A stretch of 39,297 nucleotides of DNA. Source: Candidatus Pacearchaeota archaeon. GTDB lineage: Bacteria > Patescibacteriota > Minisyncoccia > Minisyncoccales > GCA-002788555. Positions within the stretch are counted from its first letter, which is position 1. Every line of letters starts with the position of its first letter. Position numbers and translations under genes: made by a program. Location: NCBI GenBank assembly GCA_035360455.1, contig DAOSAR010000002.1:1-39297 (forward strand). The letters run 5' to 3'. Shown piece after piece: positions 3,796-39,100 of the stretch. The notes under the pieces are model-generated. The model had not been told where the DNA came from, did not search any database, and saw only the letters and a list, made by a program, of their open reading frames with translations.

Positions 3796-3832
3796 AGCTC
3801 TCGCTTTTTTAAGCGAGAGCTCTTTTATTTTT
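3796..3832 (+). terminator. Rho-independent terminator
   Basis: An 11-bp stem AGCTCTCGCTT-tttt-AAGCGAGAGCT followed by CTTTTATTTTT. Confidence 0.8.
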
Positions 3833-4534: not shown

Positions 4535-4691
4535 GTCGGGATAAGTCAGTAAATAAGAATTTATTACGAATACGGATTTAAGGGTGATTAAGAGTGATTT
4601 TAAGGGTTGTTAATAAGATCTGCGATTCGTACGGCATAAAATCCGTATATTTGCATTATTATTTAAAAATTTAAAATTTAATAGAAATTAT
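4535..4691. repeat. Intergenic spacer built of inverted short words (TACGAAT/ATTCGTA, ATACGGATTT/AAATCCGTAT, TTAAGGG-type tandem words)
   Basis: ATACGGATTT at 4570-4579 is the exact reverse complement of AAATCCGTAT at 4639-4648. TACGAAT and ATTCGTA are also present. Between them lie tandem TTAAGGGTGA / TTAAGAGTGA / TTTTAAGGGTTG words. Confidence 0.6.
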
Positions 4692-7175: not shown

Positions 7176-7308
7176 AATTCTAATGACCAAATTCCAATTT
7201 CCAATTAAATACTAAATCCCAATGTTCAAACTAAATTACTGTTTAAAACATTTGGTAATTATAATTTGATTGGTCATTGGTTATTAGAGTTTGGCATTTT
7301 AAATAATT
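7176..7308. repeat. Intergenic imperfect palindrome with CCAAT-type words on the left and ATTGG-type words on the right
   Basis: AATGACCAA (7182-7190) pairs with TTGGTCATT (7270-7278). An inner stem CCAATGTT-c-AAAC / GTTT-a-AACATT-t-GG is present. The left arm is ccaaattccaatttccaatt...cccaat and the right arm is catttgg...gattggtcattgg...tttgg. Confidence 0.6.
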
Positions 7309-7749: not shown

Positions 7750-7834
7750 AATGTTAAAGGAAAATAAGGAAATTTTAAGGTTATTAAGGGAACACGATTT
7801 AAAAATTAAAAATTTGAAATTAAAAATTTAACAT

Positions 7835-10255: not shown

Positions 10256-10375
10256 GTTTTGGTTTCGAGCATCCCTCAAGACACCAGTAATTTTACTTCG
10301 TAAAATTCTGGTTTCTTGCGTCAGTCACTTCGTTCCTTCCTATCTTCCCGAAACCAAAACATGGGAGGAACCCAT
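10256..10375. ncRNA. Candidate structured RNA/DNA element of unknown class next to tRNA-Arg
   Basis: A 12-bp closing stem GTTTTGGTTTCG (10256-10267) / CGAAACCAAAAC (10349-10360) encloses a long hairpin (CAAGA..CCAG-AATTTTAC-loop-GTAAAATT-CTGG..TCTTG). One internal strand is purine- or pyrimidine-rich depending on the strand read. A hairpin ATGGG-aggaa-CCCAT follows (10361-10375). The region is visibly GC-richer than neighbouring spacers and holds no ORF. Confidence 0.3.
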
Positions 10376-10424
10376 ACCCCATAATAGTTTTGGTTCCGTA
10401 ATAGATTCGTAATTCGTTGATTTG

Positions 10425-11432: not shown

Positions 11433-11595
11433 ATTGTATTTGAATAGCCTTAGTGAATAGGCACATCCAATTTATATTCTAATTAGCGATTCCAATCTAT
11501 ATACCTCCTCGCAGATGTTTTAACAATACAGACAGGATAGATGACATCAAAATATTCAAGTTATTCGGATGCATTCGTAATTTCGGATTGCATTT

Positions 11596-16937: not shown

Positions 16938-16988
16938 AATTTTCAAACAAAAAGTTTAGAAATTAATAATTATAAATTAGAAATTTTT

Positions 16989-17990
16989 ATGAAAATAGGT
17001 ATTGATCTTGGCACTTGTAATTCAATTGTTTTTGTGAAAGGAAAAGGAATTGTTTTGTCAGAACCTACCGTTGTTGCTGTTTCTCAAGAAGAAAACAGAG
17101 TTTTAGCTATTGGGAAAGAAGCAAAAGAAATGCTTGGTCGCACTCCTGATACAATTGTTGCTTACCGTCCATTAAGAGATGGGGTTATTGCTGATTTCAG
17201 AGTTACCGAAGCAATGCTTCGCTATTTCATTCGAAAAGTTCAAGGGCATTTTTCCTTTACAAAACCAGAAGTTTTAATTGGCATTCCAGCTGGAGCTACT
17301 TCAACTGAAAGAAGAGCAGTGATAGAAGCTGCTTTAAAGGCCGGTGCAAAAGAAGCTTTTGTAGCAAAAGAACCGATTCTTTCAGCTATTGGCGCTGGCA
17401 TTCCTATAAACTCTTCTTCTGGCAATATGATTGTTGATATTGGTGGAGGAACAACAGAAGTTGCAGTTATTTCTCTTGGTGGGATTGTTTCAGCATCTTC
17501 AGTAAGAGTTGGTGGAGACAAATTTGATTCAGCTATTGAAAACTATATTAAAGAAAAATATGACCTGGCCATTGGAGAACAAACAGCCGAAAGGATTAAA
17601 ATTCAAATTGGTTCAGCTATGCCCCCAAAAGAAGAAAAAAAGATGAGAATAAAAGGAAGAGATTTAGTTTTGGGCCTGCCAAAAACTATTGAAATTTCCT
17701 CAACTGAAATTTGTCAATCTCTTCAAGATCAATTAGGAGAAATTCTTCAATGTGTTAAAAGTGTTTTAAAAGAAACTCCTCCAGAAATTTCCGCTGACAT
17801 TATGGATAAAGGAATGGTTTTAGCAGGTGGTGGTTCGCTTTTAAGAAGGATTGATGAATATTTGGCCAAAAACACCGGCGTGCCTTCTCAAATTGCCGAG
17901 GAGCCATTTTTTTGCGTAGCAAAGGGCACAGGCATTGTTCTTGAGCATCTTGATACTTATAAAAAGAGTATAATGGCAAAAAAGGCTTAA
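16989..17990 (+). CDS. mreB: MreB-like actin homolog, paralog 1
   Basis: IGIDLGTCNSIVF, NMIVDIGGGTTEVAVISLGGIV and VLAGGGSLLRRIDEYL. Confidence 0.9.
   Translation: MKIGIDLGTCNSIVFVKGKGIVLSEPTVVAVSQEENRVLAIGKEAKEMLGRTPDTIVAYRPLRDGVIADFRVTEAMLRYFIRKVQGHFSFTKPEVLIGIPAGATSTERRAVIEAALKAGAKEAFVAKEPILSAIGAGIPINSSSGNMIVDIGGGTTEVAVISLGGIVSASSVRVGGDKFDSAIENYIKEKYDLAIGEQTAERIKIQIGSAMPPKEEKKMRIKGRDLVLGLPKTIEISSTEICQSLQDQLGEILQCVKSVLKETPPEISADIMDKGMVLAGGGSLLRRIDEYLAKNTGVPSQIAEEPFFCVAKGTGIVLEHLDTYKKSIMAKKA
17424..17489 (+). repeat. 66-bp tract identical to 19864..19929 (mreB paralog 2)
   Basis: aatatgattgttgatattggtggaggaacaacagaagttgcagttatttctcttggtgggattgtt occurs in both genes with no mismatch, while the flanking codons differ extensively. 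Confidence 0.9.
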
Positions 17991-18008: not shown

Positions 18009-19274
18009 ATGCTTCGTTCTCAATTTTTTTTAAAAACAAAAAAGGATGTTCCAAAGGGAATCGAGGTTGAATCTCATAAGCTTTTAATTAAGGGAGGTTT
18101 TATTGAACAAGTTTCATCGGGAAGTTTTTGTTTTTTGCCGCTTGGCTGGAAAGTTCATCAAGAAATTGAAAATATTATCAGAGACGAAATGAATAAGACT
18201 GGAGGTCAGGAAGTTTATCTTAATGCTTTAATTCCAAAAGAGCTTTGGCAAAAAACTGGACGTTGGGAAAAGATGGATCCACCCCTTTTTCGAACGAAAG
18301 ATCGTCACCAACAAGAATTTGGCTTGGGACCGACTCACGAGGAAGTAATTACTCAAATTGCTAAAAATTATGTCGAATCTTATAAGGATTTGCCTTTTGC
18401 TCTTTATCAAATTCAAAATAAATTTCGTAATGAAATGAGATTTACCGGCGGACTTTTACGAACGCGGGAATTTATAATGAAGGATCTTTACAGTTTTCAT
18501 CAGGATGAAAAGGATTTAGAAAAATATTTTTATAAAGTAGTAAGAGCTTATGAAAAGATTTTTCGGCGTTGCGGAGTTCCAGCAATAAAAAGCGAGGCAT
18601 CAGGCGCTGGATTTGCTGAAAAAGGAGCAAAAACTTATGAATTTCAGGTTGAGGCAGGCATAGGGGAAGATAAAGTAATTTTTTGCCCAAAATGCAAATG
18701 GGCAGCAAATAGCGAAGTTAGTTCTAAAAAAGAAGGAGAAAAATGCCCGAATTGCAAAGGAATTTTAAAGCAAATTCAAACTATCGAAGTTGGCCATACT
18801 TTTATGCTTGGCACAAAATATTCCAAAGCCTTTGATCTCACTTTTAAAGACAAAGATGGGAAAGAAAAATTAGTTTATATGGGATGCTATGGAATTGGCG
18901 TTGGAAGATTAATGGCAACTATTATTGAAAAAAACCATGATGAAAAAGGGATAATCTTTCCAAAAGAAGTAGCGCCGTTTGATATTTACTTAATCCCACT
19001 ATTTTCTGGGAATGAAACAATCGACAGAAAAATTAAAAATCTATCAAAAAAAATTTATGAAAGTTTAAAAAAGCGAGGAGTTGATGTATTATTTGATGAT
19101 AGAGAAGATAGGTCAACGGGCGAGAAGTTTGCTGATTGCGACTTAATTGGCGTTCCCAAAAGAATTGTAATTTCCGAAAGAACCTTAGAAAAAGATTGCA
19201 TAGAAATAAAAGGAAGAAAAGAGAAAAAGGGAAAACTGGTTAAAATGGCAAAAATATTATCAACGAATTACTAA
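18009..19274 (+). CDS. proS: Prolyl-tRNA synthetase, bacterial-type N-terminus, lacking the INS editing domain and carrying a Cys4 knuckle
   Basis: N-terminus LRSQFFLKTKKDVPKGIEVESHKLLIKGGFIEQVSSGSFCFLPLGW, then RTREFIMKDLYSFH, GCYGIGVGRLMATIIE, and an anticodon-binding C-terminus. The protein is only 421 aa. CPKCKW...CPNCKG sits where INS would be. Confidence 0.9.
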   Translation: MLRSQFFLKTKKDVPKGIEVESHKLLIKGGFIEQVSSGSFCFLPLGWKVHQEIENIIRDEMNKTGGQEVYLNALIPKELWQKTGRWEKMDPPLFRTKDRHQQEFGLGPTHEEVITQIAKNYVESYKDLPFALYQIQNKFRNEMRFTGGLLRTREFIMKDLYSFHQDEKDLEKYFYKVVRAYEKIFRRCGVPAIKSEASGAGFAEKGAKTYEFQVEAGIGEDKVIFCPKCKWAANSEVSSKKEGEKCPNCKGILKQIQTIEVGHTFMLGTKYSKAFDLTFKDKDGKEKLVYMGCYGIGVGRLMATIIEKNHDEKGIIFPKEVAPFDIYLIPLFSGNETIDRKIKNLSKKIYESLKKRGVDVLFDDREDRSTGEKFADCDLIGVPKRIVISERTLEKDCIEIKGRKEKKGKLVKMAKILSTNY

Positions 19275-19410
19275 TCCATTACGAATTTACGAATGTGAAA
19301 ACTATTATCCGAATCCGCGAATAATTATCCGAATCTGCGAATTTACGAATTTGGATATTTATGTTCGTTGATTCGTATATTCGAATTAATTCGTAATTCG
19401 TAGAGGTTTT
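19275..19410. repeat. Intergenic spacer with about 7 CGAAT-containing words followed by 4 to 5 ATTCG words (inverted word array)
   Basis: The left arm is attacgaatttacgaat...atccgaatccgcgaat...atccgaatctgcgaatttacgaat. The right arm is attcgtatattcgaattaattcgtaattcgta. For example, TACGAAT at 19344-19350 pairs with ATTCGTA at 19371-19377. Confidence 0.7.
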
Positions 19411-20445
19411 ATGTTTTTTCATCGCGACATTGGAATTGATCTTGGAACGGCAAATACTTTAGTTTATGCGAAAGGCCGGGGAATTATTATTAACGAACCT
19501 TCGGTAGTGGCCATTAATAAAAAAACAGGTCAAGTTTTAGCAGTGGGCGAAGAAGCTAGAAAAATGGTTGGCAAAACCCCAGGCCACATTGTTGCAACAA
19601 AACCCTTAGTTGGAGGAGTCGTTTCTGATTTTGAAATTACTGAACAAATGCTTCGTTATTTTATTGATAAAGTTTGCGGAAAAAGATTTTTTCCTTGGCC
19701 TCAGCCACGTTTAGTGATTGGTGTTCCTTGCGGAGTAACTGAGGTTGAGAAAAAGGCAGTAGAAGATGCAGCGCGAAATGCAGGTGCTGGAGAGGTTTAT
19801 TTGATTGAAGAACCAATGGCTGCGGCTATTGGCGCGCGTTTGCCAGTTCAGGAAGCAGGAGGAAATATGATTGTTGATATTGGTGGAGGAACAACAGAAG
19901 TTGCAGTTATTTCTCTTGGTGGGATTGTTAACTCACGCTCAATTAGGGTGGCTGGCAATAAATTAGATCAAGATATCATTCGTTATGCCGAGGAAAAATT
20001 TAAATTGATTTTAGGAGAAAGAACAGCAGAAGAAATAAAAATTAAAATTGGCTCAGCAATACCTTTAAAAGAAAAGCTCGAATATCCGATGAGAGGAAGA
20101 GATATTATTACGGGCTTGCCAAAAGAAATTATGGTTAGCGATGAAGATATTCGCGAAGCAATAAAAGGCTCAGTAAGAACAATTGTAAATGAAGTTAAAG
20201 CAGCGGTTGAAGATACGCCTCCTGAGCTTTTAGCTGATATTATGGCAAAAGGAATTTATCTTGTAGGGGGAGGTAGTCTTTTGCGAGGGCTAGATGAACT
20301 TTTAAAAAAAGAAACAAAAATTCCAGTAAAAATACCTGAAGATTCAATGACAGCTGTTGCGCGAGGTTGTGGTATTGTTCTTGAAAATTTACCAAAATTA
20401 AGAGAAGTTTTAGTATCAACAGAAGAGCTAGAGGCACCGAAATAA
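19411..20445 (+). CDS. mreB: Rod-shape-determining protein MreB, paralog 2 (more canonical)
   Basis: DIGIDLGTANTLVY, NMIVDIGGGTTEVAVISLGGIV and YLVGGGSLLRGLDELLKKET. Confidence 0.92.
   Translation: MFFHRDIGIDLGTANTLVYAKGRGIIINEPSVVAINKKTGQVLAVGEEARKMVGKTPGHIVATKPLVGGVVSDFEITEQMLRYFIDKVCGKRFFPWPQPRLVIGVPCGVTEVEKKAVEDAARNAGAGEVYLIEEPMAAAIGARLPVQEAGGNMIVDIGGGTTEVAVISLGGIVNSRSIRVAGNKLDQDIIRYAEEKFKLILGERTAEEIKIKIGSAIPLKEKLEYPMRGRDIITGLPKEIMVSDEDIREAIKGSVRTIVNEVKAAVEDTPPELLADIMAKGIYLVGGGSLLRGLDELLKKETKIPVKIPEDSMTAVARGCGIVLENLPKLREVLVSTEELEAPK
19864..19929 (+). repeat. 66-bp tract identical to 17424..17489 (mreB paralog 1)
   Basis: Exact match by direct comparison of the two stretches. Confidence 0.9.
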
Positions 20446-20511
20446 AATTCCAAATTCCAAATATTAGAATTTTTTTGAAAATTAAAAATTTAAAATTAGA
20501 AATTTTGATTT

Positions 20512-22334: not shown

Positions 22335-22393
22335 GGTTTTGTCTTTTTATCTTTATTCTTCGCTTAGGTTTTTTTGAAAGCTTTTTAAATAAA

Positions 22394-22423
22394 ACTCCGC
22401 CATCAAAAATGGCGGAGTTTTTA
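22394..22423. terminator. Bidirectional rho-independent terminator between convergent genes
   Basis: ACTCCGCCAT-caaaa-ATGGCGGAGT, flanked by an A-run upstream and TTTTTAT downstream. Confidence 0.8.
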
Positions 22424-23931: not shown

Positions 23932-25245
23932 TTATTGAGGATCTGGTCCTGGTCCTCCGCTATCGGAGCTTCCAGAACTACCCGAACTGCCTGATCCTGA
24001 ACCTGAACTTGAACTTCCACCGTCTGATCCACTTGAACTTCCACCGTCTGATCCACTTGAACTTCCCGAGTCACCATTATCTGATTCTCCACCTGAAGAA
24101 CATGATTGTGATCCTGGTGGAGAAGAAGGAGATGGAGGAGAAGATGTTCCTCCTGGGCCACCCGAATCTGAATTACTGCTGCTTGAACCGCTTGATCCAG
24201 CATGATCTGATCCGCTATTAAGATAAAATGATTGAGCTTTTAAAGCTGAAAGAACTTTTATAGGGTTTCCGCAATACATCAGTATTCGTGGCGTTCCAAT
24301 CAGATCTGTTAAGACTTTTTCATCTCTGGATAAATATTGTTGAAATACACAATATTCTCCATTACGTAAGCCTGCGCTCAAAACAAATGTTCCTTTTGGT
24401 AGGATCTTAACTAGTTTTTCATCTCTTTGAGTATCTTCAACTATTTTTTCAAAAATCATGAAGGATTCAACATTATTTAAGCTCAATCCGCTGATATCCT
24501 TTAAGGGTTTTTCGTATTCAGGGTGAGATTTTATATATTCAAAAACATCTTTCCAGCATTCAACTCCTCCTCCAATCATAGCTTCAATCTCTAAAGACGT
24601 TCCTACTTTTTTTGTTTTTTCTTTCGCCGGTGGCAACGTTATTGGCGTTGCTGCTGCTGTTGTTGTTGTTGTTGTTGTTGATTCAACCGGTATTGGTGGT
24701 GTTGACTTTGACAGAGTTGATTTTTCTTTTGGTTTTGGTTTTGGCTTAGGGGTTTCTACCCGACAAGGATTCCCGCAATCTGTTAAAACCCTAGGAATGC
24801 CATTCGTATCTGCCAGTGCTATTCTTGCTTTTGGTAAAGACTGTTTAATTGAATAGTACTTGCCGTTTTTCTGACCAGTGTTGATTAAAAAGGTTCCCTT
24901 TGGAACGACCATTTTCAGGCTAAGTCCTTTTTTCTCAAGAACAGCAAGAGAGTGGACTGTTTCAAAGTCTAAACCAGTTATCTCTTTCATAAGGCGAGCG
25001 TAATCGGGATCATTTTCCATTTTAGTAAGAACTTCTTGCCAAGATGAAAGACCATTAGGAACAACTCCATTATTTCGTTCTGTTCGTTGCGTAATTTGTT
25101 GGGGAACTGGTTGCTGTGTGGATTGTTGTGATGCTTGTTCCGGTTGGACCATTTGCTCTTGTTGCCGTTCTTCCTTTTGATTTAGCCAGCCAAAGAGCCA
25201 AAAAACTAATACAAGGATAGCTACGAAACTCACAATTTTTTTCAC
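23932..25245 (-). CDS. Membrane-anchored or secreted protein with two repeats of about 95 aa, a poly-Thr linker and a long Ser/Gly-rich tail
   Basis: GTG start preceded by GGGGGGTG. There is an N-terminal TM helix and a Q-rich region. The repeats share the pattern ...PDYARLMKEITGLDFETVHS...PKGTFLINTGQKNGKYY...GIPRVLTDCGNP / ...PEYEKPLKDISGLSLNNVES...PKGTFVLSAGLRNGEYC...GTPRILMYCGNP. The tail reads GSSSGSDGGSSSGSDGG... Confidence 0.75.
   Translation of the reverse strand: MKKIVSFVAILVLVFWLFGWLNQKEERQQEQMVQPEQASQQSTQQPVPQQITQRTERNNGVVPNGLSSWQEVLTKMENDPDYARLMKEITGLDFETVHSLAVLEKKGLSLKMVVPKGTFLINTGQKNGKYYSIKQSLPKARIALADTNGIPRVLTDCGNPCRVETPKPKPKPKEKSTLSKSTPPIPVESTTTTTTTAAATPITLPPAKEKTKKVGTSLEIEAMIGGGVECWKDVFEYIKSHPEYEKPLKDISGLSLNNVESFMIFEKIVEDTQRDEKLVKILPKGTFVLSAGLRNGEYCVFQQYLSRDEKVLTDLIGTPRILMYCGNPIKVLSALKAQSFYLNSGSDHAGSSGSSSSNSDSGGPGGTSSPPSPSSPPGSQSCSSGGESDNGDSGSSSGSDGGSSSGSDGGSSSSGSGSGSSGSSGSSDSGGPGPDPQ
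24008..24066. repeat. 24-bp tandem repeat, about 2.5 copies, inside the S/G-rich tail
   Basis: cttgaacttccaccgtctgatcca occurs at 24008-24031 and 24032-24055, followed by a partial third copy. Confidence 0.85.
24659..24679. repeat. (GTT)7 trinucleotide repeat preceded by a short GCT-triplet run, encoding poly-Thr/Ala on the minus strand
   Basis: Direct reading of gctgctgctgttgttgttgttgttgttgttg. Confidence 0.85.
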
Positions 25246-27493: not shown

Positions 27494-27541
27494 CAGATTA
27501 CCGACTTACTTAATACTGATTAGCGCTGATTCTGCATCTAT

Positions 27542-27582
27542 CCGCGTATAGAGATCTGCGCTAGTCCGTGTATAGATCTGCG
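27542..27582 (+). repeat. Direct repeat CCG(C/T)GTATAGA(GA)TCTGCG x2 just upstream of secE
   Basis: Copies at 27542-27560 and 27566-27582, separated by ctagt. Confidence 0.6.
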
Positions 27583-27601
27583 TTAATTCGCGTCAAGAGA
27601 T

Positions 27602-27799: not shown

Positions 27800-27913
27800 C
27801 TCAATTTTGCTTGGCAAAATTGAGAATTTATAATTTATAATTTTAAATTTACAATTTCTATTATTTTAAAATTAATTTATTGAACATTTAATAAAATTAA
27901 AAATTAACCTATT

Positions 27914-28459: not shown

Positions 28460-28524
28460 TAATCGCTAATCTATGCGAATTTAATTCGCGAATAACGTGA
28501 ATAATTAATGTATATTCTATTATT

Positions 28525-29923: not shown

Positions 29924-30322
29924 AAGAGCATTAGTAAGCCGAGTTCTGTCCTATTTCTCATTTTTTAATTTAAAAGTGAGAAATAGTGATAGTCATTTCT
30001 CTAGCTCCATAATTACTTATGGAGTCAAGCTCCCTTTTTAAAGGATGGGATTACATCAGGTAGGGTTTGCCATAGTCAATGTTTCCATTGACTAACTCGC
30101 CTGAGGCGAGACTTTTCACCTTTCTCCCACTTTCAGATGAAAGCGGGGTAGTATAGTCTCTGTGGCACTTTCCCTAGCCTTACGGCCGGTGGGAGTTACC
30201 CACTACCTACTTCTGCCAATTTTGCATTCACTCGCAAAGCTTATGAGCAAAATTGGAGGATGCTCGGACTTTCCTCCCCTCACCTTCGTAAAAGGTGAGG
30301 GGCGACTACCTTACTTGCTCTT
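29924..30322 (-). ncRNA. rnpB: RNase P RNA
   Basis: The minus strand reads AAGAGCAAGTAAGG...CCCCTCACC-ttttacgaa-GGTGAGGGGAGGAAAGTCCGAGCATCC (P3 and the P4 5' strand)...GGAAAGTGCCACAGAGA...GGACAGAACTCGGCTTACTAATGCTCTT (P4 3' strand, with P1 closing). The region of about 400 nt is ORF-free and GC-richer than its surroundings. Confidence 0.88.
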
Positions 30323-32687: not shown

Positions 32688-32813
32688 GACGCGATTCTGA
32701 TTTACCAATAACACCCGAATTATCCGAATAATAAATGGATTATCTTAGTTATTCTTTCCTTCGGATCATTCGGATAAAATTCGGATTTTTCGGATCGGTT
32801 TAATTAGGATACT
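32688..32813. repeat. Intergenic inverted word array with CCGAAT words on the left and TTCGGAT words (x4) on the right
   Basis: cccgaattatccgaat ... ttcggatcattcggataaaattcggatttttcggatcgg. ATCCGAAT at 32722-32729 is the exact reverse complement of ATTCGGAT at 32768-32775 and 32779-32786. Confidence 0.7.
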
Positions 32814-33494: not shown

Positions 33495-33580
33495 TAAAAA
33501 TTTTAAAGCACGAAATTCTAAATTCTAAATTCAAAATTTCAAATTATTTAGGATTTAAAAATTAGGATTTAGAAATTCTT
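33495..33580. repeat. Intergenic inverted word array with TCTAAAT words on the left and ATTTAGG/ATTTAGA words on the right
   Basis: The left arm aaattctaaattctaaattcaaaatttcaaat faces the right arm atttaggatttaaaaattaggatttagaaatt. The right arm's reverse complement matches the left arm at roughly 70% by eye. Confidence 0.65.
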
Positions 33581-33598
33581 TTGCGAAGCAAAAGTTTT

Positions 33599-35246: not shown

Positions 35247-35447
35247 ATACGCGAGCCCCGCTCCGCAGAGCGGAGCGAAGTTCAATGAATTAAATATTCA
35301 TTTCACCGAGCTCACTACGTTCGCTCGAGCGTGGAGATGAAGGTAAACTCCGGCCCCTCACCCTCCTCGAAGAAGGTGAGGGGAAAGGGCGAAGACAAAA
35401 ACAAAGTTTTTGTGGAGCCCTGAAGGAGGTAAACTTCATCGACTTAT
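35247..35447 (-). other. GC-rich multi-hairpin spacer of about 200 nt inside the rpsF-ssb-rpsR operon (candidate structured RNA)
   Basis: Plus-strand hairpins are CGCTCCGC-aga-GCGGAGCG, AATGAAT-taaat-ATTCATT, CGAGC...GCTCG, CCCCTCACC-ctcctcgaagaa-GGTGAGGGG and ACAAAAAC-aaa-GTTTTTGT. An outer pair GATGAAG...CTTCATC is also present. There is no ORF. Confidence 0.35.
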
Positions 35448-36110: not shown

Positions 36111-39100
36111 ATGGAATTTAACTTACCAAAAGAAGAGAAAAAAATTCTTAATTTCTGGGAAGAGGAGAAAATTTTTCAAAGCAGCCTTCAGAAGACAAAA
36201 GGAAAACCTAATTTTGTTTTTTATGAAGGACCTCCTGGAGCAAATGGGAGGCCTGGCCTTCATCATATTTTATCGCGCAGCTATAAAGATATTATTTGTC
36301 GCTATAAAACGATGAAAGGTTTTTATGTTGAAAGAAGAGCTGGTTGGGATACTCATGGTTTACCGGTAGAGTTAGAAGTTGAAAAACAGCTTCAAATTAA
36401 AACAAAGCAAGACATTGAAAAATTTGGAATTGATAAATTCATTGAAAACTGTCAAAACCTTGTTTGGCGTTACAAAGCAGAATGGGAAAAAGTGACCGAA
36501 GAAATTGGTTTTTGGCTTGATTTTGAAAATGCCTATATTACTTATGACCCACTTTATATTGAAAGTTTGTGGTACATAATAAAAGAAATTTACAAGAAAG
36601 GACTTTTGTATGAAGATAAAAAAGCCGTTCCTTGGTGTCCACGATGTCAAACTTCTTTATCATCTCATGAGGTTGCTTTAGGATATCAAAAAGTAAAAGA
36701 TCGAGCAATTTATGTAAAATTTCAAATTGCCGAACCTTGTGAAGCAAGGCGAGACGTGAAAAGAGGTAAAATCTCATTGAATTCCAAGTTTCAATTTTTA
36801 AATACTTATTTTCTTGCTTGGACGACCACTCCTTGGACCTTACCAGGAAATATGGCCTTAGCAGTAAATCCTGATATTGATTATGTATTAGTTGAAGCGG
36901 ACTTACTCGGATTAGCGAAAAAGAATAAAGATCAATATATCTTAGCTAAATCAAGATTAAAAGAAATTTTTCAGGAAAATGACTATAAAATTCTTAAAGA
37001 ATTAAAAGGTAAAGAGTTAATTGGTTTAGAATATAAACCACCTTATCCTACGCCTGATATTAAAAATCAATCAGCAAATATTTATCACGTTGTGGCTGGT
37101 AACTTTGTTTCTACAGAAGAAGGAACAGGAATTGTTCATATTTCCCCTGCTTTTGGAGAAGATGATTTTAGAGTAGGAAAAGAAAATAATTTATCTCCAT
37201 TGGTAACTGTAAATGAAGATGGCACAATGAAAAAAGGAGTTATTGGAGAGGGAAAATTTATTAAAGAAGCAGAACCAATAATTATTGAAGAATTAAAAAA
37301 ACGGAATTTGATTTTTAAAGAAGAGTTGTACGAACATGATTATCCGTTTTGCTGGCGTTGTAAAACTCCACTTTTGTATTACTTACACACATCTTGGTTT
37401 TTTGCCATAGAAAAGATTAAAGAAAAATTAATTCAAAATAATCAAAAAGTAAATTGGATTCCTCCTTATATAAAGAAAGGAAGATTTGGTAAATGGTTAG
37501 AAGAAGGCAGAGATTGGAATTTTTCTCGAGAAAGATATTGGGGAACACCCTTGCCAATCTGGAAATGCAAAAATTGTCAAAAAGTTGAATTAATTGGTTC
37601 AAGAGAAGATTTAAGAAAAGAAAAATTTTCCACTAATAGATATTTTATCTTAAGACACGGATTAGCAAAGCAAAATATTAATGGAATAGTAAATTCTTCT
37701 CCGGAGGAAAATTTTCCCTTAACCCAAAAAGGAAAATCTCAAGCTAAAAAAGCTGTTTTAAAATTAAAAAAATTATTAGACTCGTCTTGTCAAAGCCCTC
37801 GGCGTAACACAGGCAAAGAAAAATTAGATATTATTTTTTCTTCCGATCTTCAAAGATGCAAAGAAACAGCAGAAATTATTTCTAATGAATTAGGAGCTAA
37901 AATTATTTTTTCTTCAGAACTTCGAGACCTAAATTTTGGAGAGTATAATGGTAAGAGCATTATGCAATATAGAAAAGATTTTCCTTATGACCTTTCAAGA
38001 TTTCAAAAACGTTTGCCTGGCGGAGAAAGTTGGAATGATTGTAAAAAAAGAATGATAAAATTTATAGAAAAAATCGAAAAAAAATACCAAAATAAAAATA
38101 TTTTAATTATTAGTCATGGCGATCCTTTATGGCTGTTGGAAGGAGCGATGAAGGGATTAACTAATGAAGAAATACTAAATTCAAGAAAAAAAATGATAGA
38201 CAAAGGAGAATTAAGAGAAATTGAGTTTAAAAAATTTCCCTATAATAAAAAAGGAGAACTTGATTTCCACCGGCCTTTTGTTGATGAAATAAATTTTTAT
38301 TGTCCGTATTGTCAAAAAGAAAAAATGCAAAGAGTGAAAGAGGTTGGTGATGTTTGGTTTGATTCCGGCGCGATGCCCTTTGGTCAAGCTCATTGGCCAT
38401 TTAGTCAACCCAAAAGTCAAAGATTAAAACCACCAGAATTATTCCCTGCAGATTTTATTTGTGAAGGAGTAGATCAAACAAGAGGGTGGTTTTACACATT
38501 ATTAGCAGTTTCTTCACTCCTCTTAGGATTTCCCGCTCCGTATAAAAATGTTTTAGTTTTAGGTTTGCTTCTTGATAAGGAAGGCAAAAAGATGTCGAAA
38601 TCAAGGGGAAATGCAGTTTTTCCAGAAGAAATGATTCAAAAATATGGAGCTGACACTATCCGATTTTACTTTTTTACAATTAACCAGCCATGGGAGTCAA
38701 AAAAATTTGATGAAAAAGATTTAAGAAAAACCTATAATCGCTTTATTTTAACAATCGAAAATTTACTTAACTTTCTTTTAACTTATACAAATACAAAAAC
38801 AAAAAAGCTAAAAACTGTTTCTTTAAAGAAAGAAATTTTAGATAACTGGATTTTATCAAAAATAGAAAATTTAAAGAAAGAAATAGATGATCTTTTATCT
38901 AATTATAAAATAGTTGAAGCTGCAAGATTAATCGAAAAATTTACTATCGAAGATCTCTCCAATTGGTATTTAAGAAGATCAAGATATCGGCTAAAGAAGG
39001 GTGATAAAAACGCTATTGCTACGTTTAGTTATGTGCTCTTTAATCTTTCCTTAATCTTAGCTCCATTTACTCCATTTTTAAGTGAGGAAGTCTATCAAAA

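What the first reader, a model, noticed from the sequence alone, without database searches (positions are those of the whole stretch)
19275..19410. Intergenic spacers built as inverted arrays of short words, with a different word in each spacer (proS-mreB example)
At least five spacers between co-directional genes share one architecture. Several tandem copies of a 5-8 nt word fill the left half, and several copies of its reverse complement fill the right half. In this spacer the words are CGAAT (about 7 copies) and then ATTCG (4-5 copies). The other spacers use CCAAT/ATTGG (7176-7308), CCGAAT/TTCGGAT (32688-32813), TCTAAAT/ATTTAGG (33495-33580) and TACGGAT-type words (4535-4691). CGAAT-type words also recur in 11540-11595 and 28474-28490 (GCGAAT-tta-ATTCGC). 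Because each spacer has its own word, the conserved property seems to be the long imperfect palindrome and not a shared binding site. That suggests local generation by slippage plus inverted duplication, with selection for a long AU-rich stem. Possible roles are an intrinsic terminator or attenuator, an RNase III processing site within operons, or a cruciform. I do not know of a description of this organisation.
Basis: seen in the sequence. Interest (0 to 1): 0.7.

Follow-up and report, generated by a model that had tools for sequence, protein, structure and literature searches.

The report
Dispersed hairpin repeats built from words
The proS-mreB spacer is one copy of a family of small hairpin-forming repeat elements, with arms made of tandem 7-8-base words, that fill intergenic regions of these tiny-genome (Patescibacteria) bacteria; it behaves like REP/MITE-type passenger DNA, not like a terminator, and resembles inverted heptamer arrays already described in Xanthomonas.

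Summary
The described pattern is real at 19275-19410. There are 7 CGAAT words on the left and 4 ATTCG (plus one GTTCG) on the right. No dinucleotide shuffle reached this count. The predicted RNA hairpin is -41 kcal/mol (z about -4.5). Of the other four spacers cited, only prfB|ftsE passes a word-array test. Two are significant hairpins with weak word repetition, and one is not significant.

The idea that each spacer has a private, locally generated word does not hold. CGAAT/CGGAT words recur in at least seven spacers of the window. Identical 18-21-nt modules occur at non-orthologous sites in a relative whose proS is 77% identical. The CCAAT element (7176-7308) has about 17 or more near-identical intergenic copies in that relative, in both orientations. 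Across 80 Patescibacteria loci plus the window, 8% of spacers hold such arrays, against 0.7% of coding controls. Period 7 dominates.

Strain comparisons show whole-word indels inside identical flanks, so slippage is ongoing. Metatranscriptome contigs run through the arrays, so they are not efficient terminators.

Best reading: these are REP/BIME/MITE-like dispersed palindromic elements whose arms are slippage-prone word arrays. How they spread is unknown. The closest published architecture is the convergent GGGAATC heptamer arrays of Xanthomonas. I rate this a new variant of a known kind, of moderate interest.

The parts
18009..19274 (+). proS (prolyl-tRNA synthetase). Its last 11 nt already carry one ACGAAT word at 19263-19268.
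   Evidence: Pfam tRNA-synt_2b + HGTP_anticodon; word positions.
19275..19351 (.). Left arm of the element: seven NNNCGAAT words (period 8) at 19282, 19290, 19310, 19318, 19330, 19338 and 19346. Includes the 20-nt tandem duplication ATTATCCGAATCYGCGAATA at 19304-19342.
   Evidence: 0 of 300 shuffles reach the word count.
19352..19362 (.). Central region between the arms (TGGATATTTAT). Part of it pairs in the predicted inner stem, which closes a loop of roughly 8-14 nt at about 19340-19350.
   Evidence: MFE structure.
19363..19402 (.). Right arm: GTTCG at 19363 and ATTCG at 19371, 19379, 19389 and 19396 (period 7-9). It is the reverse complement of the left-arm words.
   Evidence: the RNA hairpin pairs 19276-19356 with 19358-19406, -41.1 kcal/mol, z -4.6/-5.5.
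19403..19413 (+). GAGG Shine-Dalgarno-like site (19403-19406) and the mreB2 start codon (19411). The element ends directly against the translation signals.
   Evidence: mreB2 Pfam MreB_Mbl.
7176..7308 (.). CCAAT/ATTGG hairpin element between asnS/aspS and RNase H. It is a member of a family with many copies in a related genome.
   Evidence: MFE z -4.0; 84% identical to L085 455-605 at a non-orthologous site; its 20-mer is found in 38 metagenome loci.
32688..32813 (.). CCGAAT x2 / TTCGGAT x4 array between prfB and ftsE (CGAAT family).
   Evidence: Word array reached by 0 of 300 shuffles; lies inside a single 2.5-kb RNA contig in 3 metatranscriptomes.
33495..33580 (.). TTCTAAA/TTTAGGA heptamer hairpin between ftsE and ftsX.
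   Evidence: MFE z -4.0; TRF period 7; right arm similar to L036 and L043 elements; read through in RNA contigs.
4565..4650 (.). CGAAT-family modules (TACGAATACGGATTTAAGGGT ... ATCTGCGATTCGTACGG ... AAATCCGTAT). This is not a significant word array.
   Evidence: A 21-nt module is identical to L093/L094; hairpin z -0.25.
11563..11590 (-). Solo left-arm type words (ATCCGAA, TACGAAT, ATCCGAAT on the minus strand) directly after the stop codon of the TrwB/VirD4-like gene. There is no inverted partner.
10403..10421 (-). CGAAT-family module ATCAACGAATTACGAATC directly after the stop codon of the bPH-domain gene.
   Evidence: Identical 18-19 nt in L087 and L093/L094.
28475..28493 (.). Small palindrome GCGAATTTAATTCGCGAAT between nusG and rplK.
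27540..27601 (.). Direct repeats TATAGA(G)ATCTGCG upstream of secE. They carry the spacer-specific word ATCTGCG, which is shared with 19333 and 4618.

Best explanation
The spacer is a copy of a dispersed, non-coding, hairpin-forming repeat element. It is comparable to REP/REPIN/BIME and MITE elements, and it is common in Patescibacteria (CPR) genomes.

**Anatomy.** Each element is an imperfect palindrome of about 90-150 bp, larger when composite. Its arms are arrays of 7-8-nt words. Several word families coexist in one genome (CGAAT, CCAAT, CTAAAT and others). Families are shared between genomes.

**How it works**
- Shown: the arrays expand and contract by whole words, which indicates replication slippage.
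- Shown: copies sit only in spacers, in either orientation. They often fill the whole gap from a stop codon to the next ribosome-binding site.
- Shown: copies appear at non-orthologous sites, so whole elements or modules are copied between spacers.
- Unknown: the copying agent. Candidates are a transposase acting in trans, or template switching / gene conversion between word arrays.
- Shown at the level of contigs: the elements are transcribed inside polycistronic mRNAs and do not stop transcription efficiently.
- Predicted: the transcript folds into a long AU-rich hairpin. Any effect on mRNA stability or processing would be a by-product, or a secondary co-option.
For: - **Non-random architecture:**
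- **Shared words in the window:** the word family recurs in at least 7 spacers and is almost absent from coding DNA.
- **Class-wide census:** 23 of 275 spacers against 2 of 275 length-matched coding controls. A sliding scan found 26 arrays against 1 in block-shuffled DNA.
- **Families within a genome:** L043 has 4 copies of one family including one reversed. L002, L036 and L005 each have paired copies.
- **Homology across genomes at different loci:** window 7176 versus L085 at 84%; L019 versus L043 at 79%; CGAAT modules identical over 18-21 nt between the window and L087/L093; CGAAT arrays in L047 and L050.
- **High copy number:** a 20-mer of the 7176 element hits 38 metagenome loci. About 17 distinct spacer sites in one related species carry copies more than 95% identical, and many lie at contig ends.
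- **Both orientations, never in ORFs:** roughly 10 copies face the same way as flanking genes and 7 the opposite way; none lies inside an ORF.
- **Ongoing slippage:** the same locus in different samples differs by indels of 15, 19 and 21 nt inside identical flanks.
- **Period 7 dominates non-coding tandem arrays:** 72 of 128 arrays.
- **Mostly absent at the orthologous junction:** most relatives have 0-20 nt between proS and mreB.
- **Read-through:** RNA contigs cross the arrays.
Against: - No transposase, target-site duplication or fixed termini were found. The neighbours checked are housekeeping genes. Mobility is therefore inferred from distribution, not demonstrated.
- For the CGAAT element itself I hold only one full-length copy. 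The rest are partial modules, because only 39 kb of this genome is available.
- This spacer folds far better as RNA (z about -4.5) than as ssDNA (z -1.8), and its sense strand is the more stable one (-41.1 against -36.6 kcal/mol). That leaves room for an RNA-level role here.
- Element sequences are about as conserved between genomes as coding DNA, 75-84% against 77%. This could reflect constraint and not recent spread.
- The metagenome scan selected on an exact 20-mer, so copy identity is biased upward.
Confidence: 0.65

Rival explanations
1. Local, independent origin. Each spacer grew its own palindrome in place, by slippage of a short word followed by inverted duplication or template switching. 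Only the stem is under selection.
For: - Word copy number does change by slippage.
- At the orthologous proS|mreB junction, the window and the relatives with 81% and 77% identical proS carry arrays with different words: CGAAT; ATTACTAA/AAATTGA; AATCAAA/TTTGAT.
- At least eight genomes have different words at this same junction.
- No transposase or target-site duplication was found.
Against: - Identical modules and whole elements occur at non-orthologous sites within and between genomes, including non-repetitive loop sequence.
- One species holds about 17 near-identical copies.
- CGAAT words are shared by at least 7 spacers of the window.
- No sense-strand stability bias is seen.
Confidence: 0.12
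2. Selected RNA element. The hairpin exists because it acts within the operon mRNA, as an attenuator or partial terminator, an RNase III processing site, or a 3'-exonuclease barrier that uncouples expression of the flanking genes, as REP does in malE-malF.
For: - The element is transcribed within polycistronic RNA.
- The RNA fold of this spacer is very significant while the ssDNA fold is not, and the sense strand is more stable here.
- 20 of 23 significant arrays lie between co-directional genes.
- One RNA contig in run X6 ends at 7183, at the foot of the 7176 element.
Against: - The element is absent from the same junction in most relatives.
- Across the class, the antisense strand is more stable in 20 of 31 elements.
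- The asymmetric composite elements lie in both orientations relative to transcription.
- There is no canonical terminator.
- RNA contigs cross the arrays at unchanged contig depth.
- The excess in co-directional spacers (87% against a 74% background) is not significant.
Confidence: 0.13
3. Protein-binding arrays. The tandem 7-8-nt words are iterated sites for a sequence-specific DNA- or RNA-binding protein. Candidates are a nucleoid protein, or a cold-shock-domain or S1-type single-strand binder with a footprint of about 7 nt. The inverted symmetry would be secondary.
For: - Period 7 is strongly preferred.
- Words are conserved across genomes.
- TTCGGAT words in 32760-32795 are spaced 9-11 nt apart.
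- The same proposal (S1, Csp, CsrA) has been made for the TAACTGA heptamer repeats of Beggiatoaceae (PMC4679880).
Against: - Many different words coexist in one genome.
- No candidate binder was identified here.
- Heptamer excess among bacterial repeats is widely attributed to polymerase slippage (cited in PMC4679880 and PMC4692102).
- Word number is hypervariable between strains.
Confidence: 0.08
4. Chance pattern in AT-rich spacer DNA.
For: Three of the five cited spacers do not pass the word-array test on their own.
Against: 0 of 300 shuffles reach the count at 19275 or at 32688. The census gives 23/275 spacers against 2/275 coding controls, and 26 arrays against 1 in shuffled DNA.
Confidence: 0.01

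Closest known systems
Convergent (inverted) GGGAATC heptamer repeat pairs in Xanthomonas campestris / X. axonopodis intergenic regions (Rehm et al. 2015, PMC4692102)
   Same: - Tandem heptameric words in spacers.
- In 70-75 cases per genome, two arrays lie close together in convergent orientation on opposite strands. These can form a stem-loop or cruciform.
- Array length and sequence vary between close relatives, while the type (single array or inverted pair) is usually kept.
- The arrays are transcribed.
   Different: - Xanthomonas has one G-rich word genome-wide, with G-quadruplex potential, in a GC-rich genome.
- Here there are many AT-rich word families per genome, 7- and 8-nt periods, and non-repetitive loop and module sequences conserved between copies.
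- Here the composites are mosaic, and there is no G4 potential.
REP / REPIN / BIME elements of Proteobacteria (PMC3337134, PMC3116915, PMC2817692)
   Same: - Extragenic and high-copy.
- Hairpin-forming inverted pairs, often between co-transcribed genes.
- Mosaic combinations with other motifs (as in BIMEs).
- Species-specific sequence families.
- Read through in operon mRNAs.
   Different: - REPs are 20-40-nt GC-rich palindromes with a conserved GTAG/CGTC head, mobilised by RAYT transposases.
- Here the arms are arrays of AT-rich words with variable copy number.
- No GTAG head and no RAYT were seen.
Bacterial MITEs (Correia/NEMIS, RPE of Rickettsia, RU-1/ERIC; reviews PMC3184786, PMC2229807)
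   Same: - Size of 100-170 bp with inverted ends.
- Intergenic dispersal in both orientations and co-transcription with neighbours.
- Possible in-frame presence in a gene (L043 gatC), as with RPEs.
   Different: - No defined terminal inverted repeats.
- No target-site duplication.
- No related autonomous IS was found.
- Element boundaries vary with word number.
Heptanucleotide-repeat stem P6b of the Nostoc tRNA-Leu(UAA) intron, and cyanobacterial STRR heptamers (PMC4476775; STRR sequences from my own knowledge of Mazel et al. 1990)
   Same: - A 50-126-nt stem-loop built from two complementary 7-nt repeat motifs (TDNGATT or NNTGAGT).
- Copy-number variation, and replacement of one motif class by another while the structure is kept.
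- Some CPR words (TTGGTCA, CCCCAAT-like) resemble STRR units.
   Different: - The Nostoc stem lies inside a group I intron at a single locus, in a different phylum.
- It is not a dispersed intergenic element.
TAACTGA direct heptamer repeats of marine Beggiatoaceae, Cyanobacteria and Bacteroidetes (PMC4679880)
   Same: - Intergenic heptamer arrays ending a few nt upstream of start codons.
- The same word is shared across distant lineages.
- TAACTGA/CAACTGA units occur in the composite elements of the related species.
   Different: - Those are almost always direct arrays (one inverted case) with a single word.
- They are oriented with the downstream gene.
Rho-independent terminators
   Same: A hairpin downstream of a stop codon, followed here by TTTTAT.
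   Different: - The window's real terminators are 11-13-bp GC-rich stems with U-tracts: 3796-3825 and 22391-22421.
- The arrays are 40-60-bp imperfect AU-rich stems.
- They are not detected by the terminator scan and are read through.

Membership tests
REP/REPIN (RAYT-mobilised) | Short (20-40 nt) GC-rich imperfect palindrome with a conserved GTAG/CGTC tetranucleotide at one end | tested here: not met
   The arms are AT-rich arrays of 7-8-nt words, and no conserved GTAG/CGTC head is present.
REP/REPIN (RAYT-mobilised) | Two units in inverted orientation forming a hairpin; extragenic; many copies per genome | tested here: met
   Hairpins with z of -4 to -8. Copies occur only in spacers. About 17 sites were found in one species, and 7 arrays lie within 12.7 kb of L043.
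REP/REPIN (RAYT-mobilised) | A cognate RAYT (Y1 transposase) gene in the same genome | tested here: inconclusive
   None among the window proteins scanned with Pfam (30 annotated ORFs plus IleRS; two small minus-strand ORFs not scanned), nor among 10 neighbours of copies in L090/L093. No complete genome was available.
MITE | Defined terminal inverted repeats and a target-site duplication | tested here: not met
   Aligned copies lose similarity at different points inside the word arrays. No direct repeat flanks them.
MITE | An autonomous IS with the same ends | tested here: inconclusive
   None of the 38 loci holding the 20-mer shows an ORF between the arms. The flanking genes checked are housekeeping. 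The search covered fragments only.
BIME-like mosaic element | Spacers built from combinations of palindromic units and other short conserved motifs in variable order | tested here: met
   Species-B composites combine [AAATTCC]n, a nested CGAAG mini-hairpin insert, an inner hairpin, [TTTCTGW]n, [TTTAGAA]n and [TTTGGAA]n in varying sets. L093 5784-6813 is a 1-kb mosaic.
Inverted heptameric simple-sequence-repeat pairs (Xanthomonas type, PMC4692102) | Tandem 7-nt units, with two arrays in convergent orientation close together in a spacer | tested here: met
   The main example has period 8; most others have period 7.
Inverted heptameric simple-sequence-repeat pairs (Xanthomonas type, PMC4692102) | A single G-rich unit genome-wide with G-quadruplex potential | tested here: not met
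   Many AT-rich words occur per genome, and there are no G-tracts.
Intrinsic terminator | Compact GC-rich stem directly followed by a U-tract; transcripts end there | tested here: not met
   The terminator scan found 0 sites in 18500-20500. RNA contigs span proS-mreB2 and prfB-ftsE-ftsX.
Curated RNA family (Rfam 15) | Match at or above a family's gathering score | tested here: not met
   Only RNase P RNA and 3 tRNAs matched in the window. The spacer gives only sub-threshold plant miRNA-precursor look-alikes.

The most novel reading that the evidence does not exclude
The word-array palindromes could be a previously unrecognised kind of mobile or self-propagating DNA, widespread in the Candidate Phyla Radiation. 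In this reading it has no transposase, terminal repeats or target duplications. It would spread by hairpin-primed template switching between slippage-prone heptamer arrays, or through a conserved protein that reads 7-nt words. The recurrence of the same units in Cyanobacteria (STRR: TTGGTCA, CCCCAAT) and in Beggiatoaceae (TAACTGA) would then point to one cross-phylum mechanism behind bacterial heptamer repeats.
Probability: 0.15. Interest if true: 0.8.

Novelty: new variant of a known kind. Interest (0 to 1): 0.45.

Why it matters
- **Genome economy.** Patescibacteria are held up as extreme examples of genome streamlining. Here some operon-internal spacers are filled with repeat elements: up to 1 kb in a relative, and 7 arrays within 12.7 kb of L043. 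These elements are hypervariable between strains.
- **Practical consequences.**
  - They break short-read assemblies, since many copies sit at contig ends.
  - They inflate spacer length and could mislead operon and terminator prediction.
  - They offer strain-typing markers.
- **Biological questions.**
  - They place long hairpins inside essential operon mRNAs (proS-mreB, prfB-ftsE-ftsX). This makes testable whether such elements are tolerated parasites or have been co-opted to tune expression.
  - They give a new, phylogenetically distant data set for the old question of why 7-nt repeats dominate in bacteria.

Tried and rejected
- **A 'chirality' rule** (C-containing words on the 5' arm, G-containing on the 3' arm). 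It held for 24 elements against 9, but only about 12 against 7 when counted by family, and it is invariant to reverse complement. I dropped it.
- **Sense-strand G-U enrichment as a sign of RNA selection.** Not found across the class.
- **Terminator or promoter role.** Consensus scans found nothing above shuffles in the arrays.
- **Rfam.** No family matched.
- **Strain variation of the CGAAT spacer itself.** Three other assemblies of the same organism (L081-L083) are identical there.
- **Target-site duplications and fixed ends.** None could be defined in the L043 or species-B copies.
- **A transposase next to copies.** Ten neighbours are all housekeeping genes.
- **The small hairpin TTTTRC-GAA-GYAAAA as part of the array elements.** Rejected. 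In L019 it precedes the same gene without any array.
- **Formal covariation analysis of the CCAAT family.** Abandoned, because the copies were selected on an exact right-arm 20-mer, which biases the test.
- **Literature.** Eight full-text searches found no description of these elements in Patescibacteria. One search for STRR unit sequences returned only noise, so the STRR units are quoted from my own knowledge.
- **Limits of the evidence.** RNA evidence comes only from assembled contigs, so no read ends or local depth are available. Genes in the loci were called from ORFs only.

Full report
**Setting**

The window is a gene-dense, 32% GC segment of a Patescibacteria (CPR, Paceibacteria-like) genome.
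- The best proS matches among GTDB species representatives are uncultured Patescibacteria at 59% identity or less.
- The same sequence occurs in activated-sludge and digester metagenomes.
- Genes were mapped with ORFs, Pfam, Rfam and ARAGORN.
- The spacer in question lies between proS (18009-19274) and a second mreB paralogue (19411-20445).

**The observation**

- Seven CGAAT words lie in the left half, at 19282, 19290, 19310, 19318, 19330, 19338 and 19346. An eighth lies in the last codons of proS.
- Four ATTCG words and one GTTCG lie in the right half.
- The words come with a period of 8. A 20-nt unit is duplicated at 19304-19342.
- The array statistic counts copies of a 5-mer left of a split plus copies of its reverse complement to the right. 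It gives 11, against a mean of 2.2 and a maximum of 6 in 300 dinucleotide shuffles.
- Direct and inverted 5-mer pair counts lie 8.4 and 6.6 sd above shuffles.
- The RNA MFE is -41.1 kcal/mol, z -4.6 to -5.5. As single-stranded DNA it is only -20.5 kcal/mol, z -1.8.

- prfB|ftsE (32688-32813) passes the word test.
- 7176-7308 and 33495-33580 are significant hairpins (z -4.0) with only 2-3 exact words per arm.
- 4535-4691 is not significant on either measure.

The window also has ordinary GC-rich terminators at 3796-3825 and 22391-22421. The arrays are therefore a separate class.

**The words are not private**

- CGAAT/CGGAT-type 7-mers are concentrated in spacers: ATCCGAA 9 against 0, TACGAAT 10 against 3, ATCTGCG 6 against 0. 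This compares 4.5 kb of non-coding with 34.7 kb of coding DNA.
- They occur in at least seven spacers. In some they form solo half-arrays directly after a stop codon: 11563-11590 and 10403-10421 on the minus strand.

**The class in other genomes**

I analysed 80 loci around proS from other Patescibacteria, plus the window (930 kb).
- A sliding scan found 26 arrays against 1 in block-shuffled DNA.
- 23 of 275 spacers of 60-400 nt pass the shuffle test at p<=0.01, against 2 of 275 length-matched coding segments.
- Tandem arrays of period 7 dominate non-coding DNA: 72 of 128 arrays in 96 kb, against 43 in 835 kb of called coding sequence.

Within a genome the arrays form sequence families.
- L043 (a Staskawiczbacteria MAG) has four copies of one element, one of them reversed, sharing non-repetitive loop sequence.
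- L002, L036 and L005 have paired copies that differ in the number of words.

Families also cross genomes, at different loci.
- L019 (proS|mreB) and L043 (gatC|gatA) are 79% identical.
- CGAAT arrays occur in L047 and L050.

**Close relatives**

The nearest proS relatives (81%, 77% and 76% amino-acid identity) were fetched.
- At the orthologous junction L084 has 55 nt with ATTACTAA x3 and TCAATTT/AAATTGA.
- L085 has 56 nt with AATCAAA/TTTGAT.
- However, L085 also carries, upstream of proS, an element 84% identical to window 7176-7308. In the window that element lies between asnS and RNase H. The two genomes' coding DNA is 77% identical.

A 20-mer from that element was scanned through the metagenome collection and found 38 loci.
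- In the species represented by L085 there are about 17 distinct spacer sites with copies more than 95% identical. Many lie at contig ends.
- These copies are composites: outer [AAATTCC]n/[GGAATTT]n arms, an inner hairpin, and further heptamer arrays in varying sets.
- They lie in either orientation relative to the flanking genes, and never inside an ORF.
- The neighbours tested are housekeeping genes; no transposase was seen.
- CGAAT-family modules of 18-21 nt are identical between the window and this species at unrelated sites.

**Slippage**

The same locus in different samples, with flanks 99-100% identical, differs inside the arrays.
- L085 against L117: indels of 15 and 21 nt, the latter being three heptamers.
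- L089 against L093: an indel of 19 nt.
- Paralogous copies differ in the same way, and the two arms change independently. For example L002 has 4+3 words in one copy and 2+5 in the other.

**Transcription**

- In three metatranscriptomes a single 2.5-kb contig covers prfB, the array, ftsE, the next array and ftsX. It ends near the operon borders.
- Contigs also cross the proS-mreB2 spacer in two runs, and the 4535 and 7176 spacers in two runs.
- RNA contig depth differs between operons (about 35, 21 and 9), whereas DNA depth is flat at about 44. These contigs therefore reflect RNA and not carried-over DNA.
- The arrays are not efficient terminators. A consensus scan finds no terminator in them either.
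- Only contigs were available, so partial termination or processing cannot be excluded. One contig of run X6 ends at 7183, at the foot of the 7176 element.

**RNA or DNA level**

- Across 31 co-directional elements the antisense strand folds better in 20. Asymmetric composites occur in both orientations. Both points argue against a strand-specific RNA function for the class.
- The CGAAT spacer itself is more stable in sense (-41.1 against -36.6 kcal/mol), and much more significant as RNA than as DNA. A local RNA role therefore remains possible.
- A cruciform is unlikely, given the mismatches and the weak ssDNA fold.

**Interpretation**

The evidence fits a REP/BIME/MITE-like dispersed palindromic element whose arms are slippage-prone word arrays.
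- Shown: non-randomness, family structure, dispersal to non-orthologous sites, restriction to spacers, both orientations, strain-level word indels, and read-through transcription.
- Inferred: that the elements are mainly selfish or neutral.
- Unknown: the copying mechanism. Variable ends and mosaic module sets suggest recombination or template switching between arrays at least as much as cut-and-paste of a fixed unit.

**Comparison with the literature**

- The closest published architecture is in Xanthomonas, where GGGAATC heptamer arrays form 70-75 convergent inverted pairs per genome (PMC4692102).
- The P6b stem of the Nostoc trnL intron is likewise built of complementary heptamer repeats, with motif replacement (PMC4476775).
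- TAACTGA heptamer arrays in Beggiatoaceae end just upstream of start codons (PMC4679880).
- REP, REPIN and BIME elements supply the dispersed-palindrome precedent (PMC3337134, PMC2817692).
- Both heptamer papers cite the proposal that 7 nt matches the polymerase footprint and so favours slippage.
- I found no paper describing these elements in Patescibacteria in the library searched.

I rate this a new variant of a known kind. It is notable mainly because it occurs, abundantly and in many word families, in genomes regarded as minimal.

Noticed in passing
window 37644-38183 (within ileS, 36111 to the window end): The isoleucyl-tRNA synthetase carries a histidine-phosphatase (His_Phos_1) domain at residues 512-691, inserted inside the catalytic domain (Pfam E=4e-32). 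This is an unusual fusion for an aminoacyl-tRNA synthetase.
   Followed up: partly
window 17421-17489 and 19861-19929: The two mreB paralogues are about 65% identical overall but share a 69-nt stretch at 98.5% identity. This suggests recent gene conversion. The stretch also breaks short-read assemblies at 19864-19929.
   Followed up: partly
window 33579-33593 (+), 10291-10305 (-), 27805-27819 (-); L043 11245-11259; L019 10173-10187; L018 2135-2149: A mini-hairpin TTTTRC-GAA-GYAAAA occurs 3 times in the window where 0.13 is expected. It lies a few nt before start codons (the probable ftsX ATG at 33598; the hyp172 homologue in L043 and L019), with a compensatory G-C to A-T change between genomes. 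GCGAAGC is known to me as an exceptionally stable GAA mini-hairpin. The same CGAAG hairpins are nested inside the species-B composite elements.
   Followed up: partly
window 35355-35384 (spacer 35286-35447, GC 0.48) and 30277-30305 (inside the RNase P RNA gene); L093 5940-5965 and 6745-6770, among others: A GC-rich palindrome CCCCTCACC..GGTGAGGGG occurs in a highly structured spacer (z about -6) and in a helix near the 5' end of the RNase P RNA gene. It is dispersed through spacers of the related species. It may be a second, REP-like repeat family, with one copy inside RNase P RNA.
   Followed up: partly
L043 9372-9400 (inside gatC): A CGAAT-family word string (AATCTACGAATAACATCCGAATCTACGAATG) lies in frame in the variable linker of GatC, encoding DPNLRITSESTNV. 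This recalls the in-frame insertions of Rickettsia palindromic elements.
   Followed up: partly
L093 5784-6813; L085 1-432: A 1-kb spacer in a CPR genome consists entirely of small palindromic modules, both AT-rich word arrays and GC-rich GTCATYGCGAG...GCAATC-type hairpins. The 'gene' called at L085 1-432 is probably a translation of such repeats.
   Followed up: no
window 24007-24066 (DUF6777-like gene, minus strand): A perfect 24-nt tandem repeat (2.5 copies) lies in a coding region. Other assemblies of the same organism differ from the window by indels of 27 nt and 3 nt and the gene product varies between 429 and 438 residues. I did not map the indels, so placing them in this repeat is an inference.
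   Followed up: no
window 16956-16985, 20445-20504, 7799-7828, 27825-27857: Further AT-rich heptamer arrays (TTAGAAA, AAATTCC, AAAATTA, TTAAAAA, AATTTAT) lie in short spacers without an inverted partner. AAATTCC is the outer-arm word of the composite element in the related species.
   Followed up: partly
L096, L104, L106, L115, L118 (GC 0.47-0.56): ATTGG/TTGGTCA-type heptamer arrays also occur in contigs of much higher GC content and unknown taxonomy. Such arrays are therefore not confined to AT-rich Patescibacteria. TTGGTCA equals the cyanobacterial STRR2 unit as I recall it.
   Followed up: no
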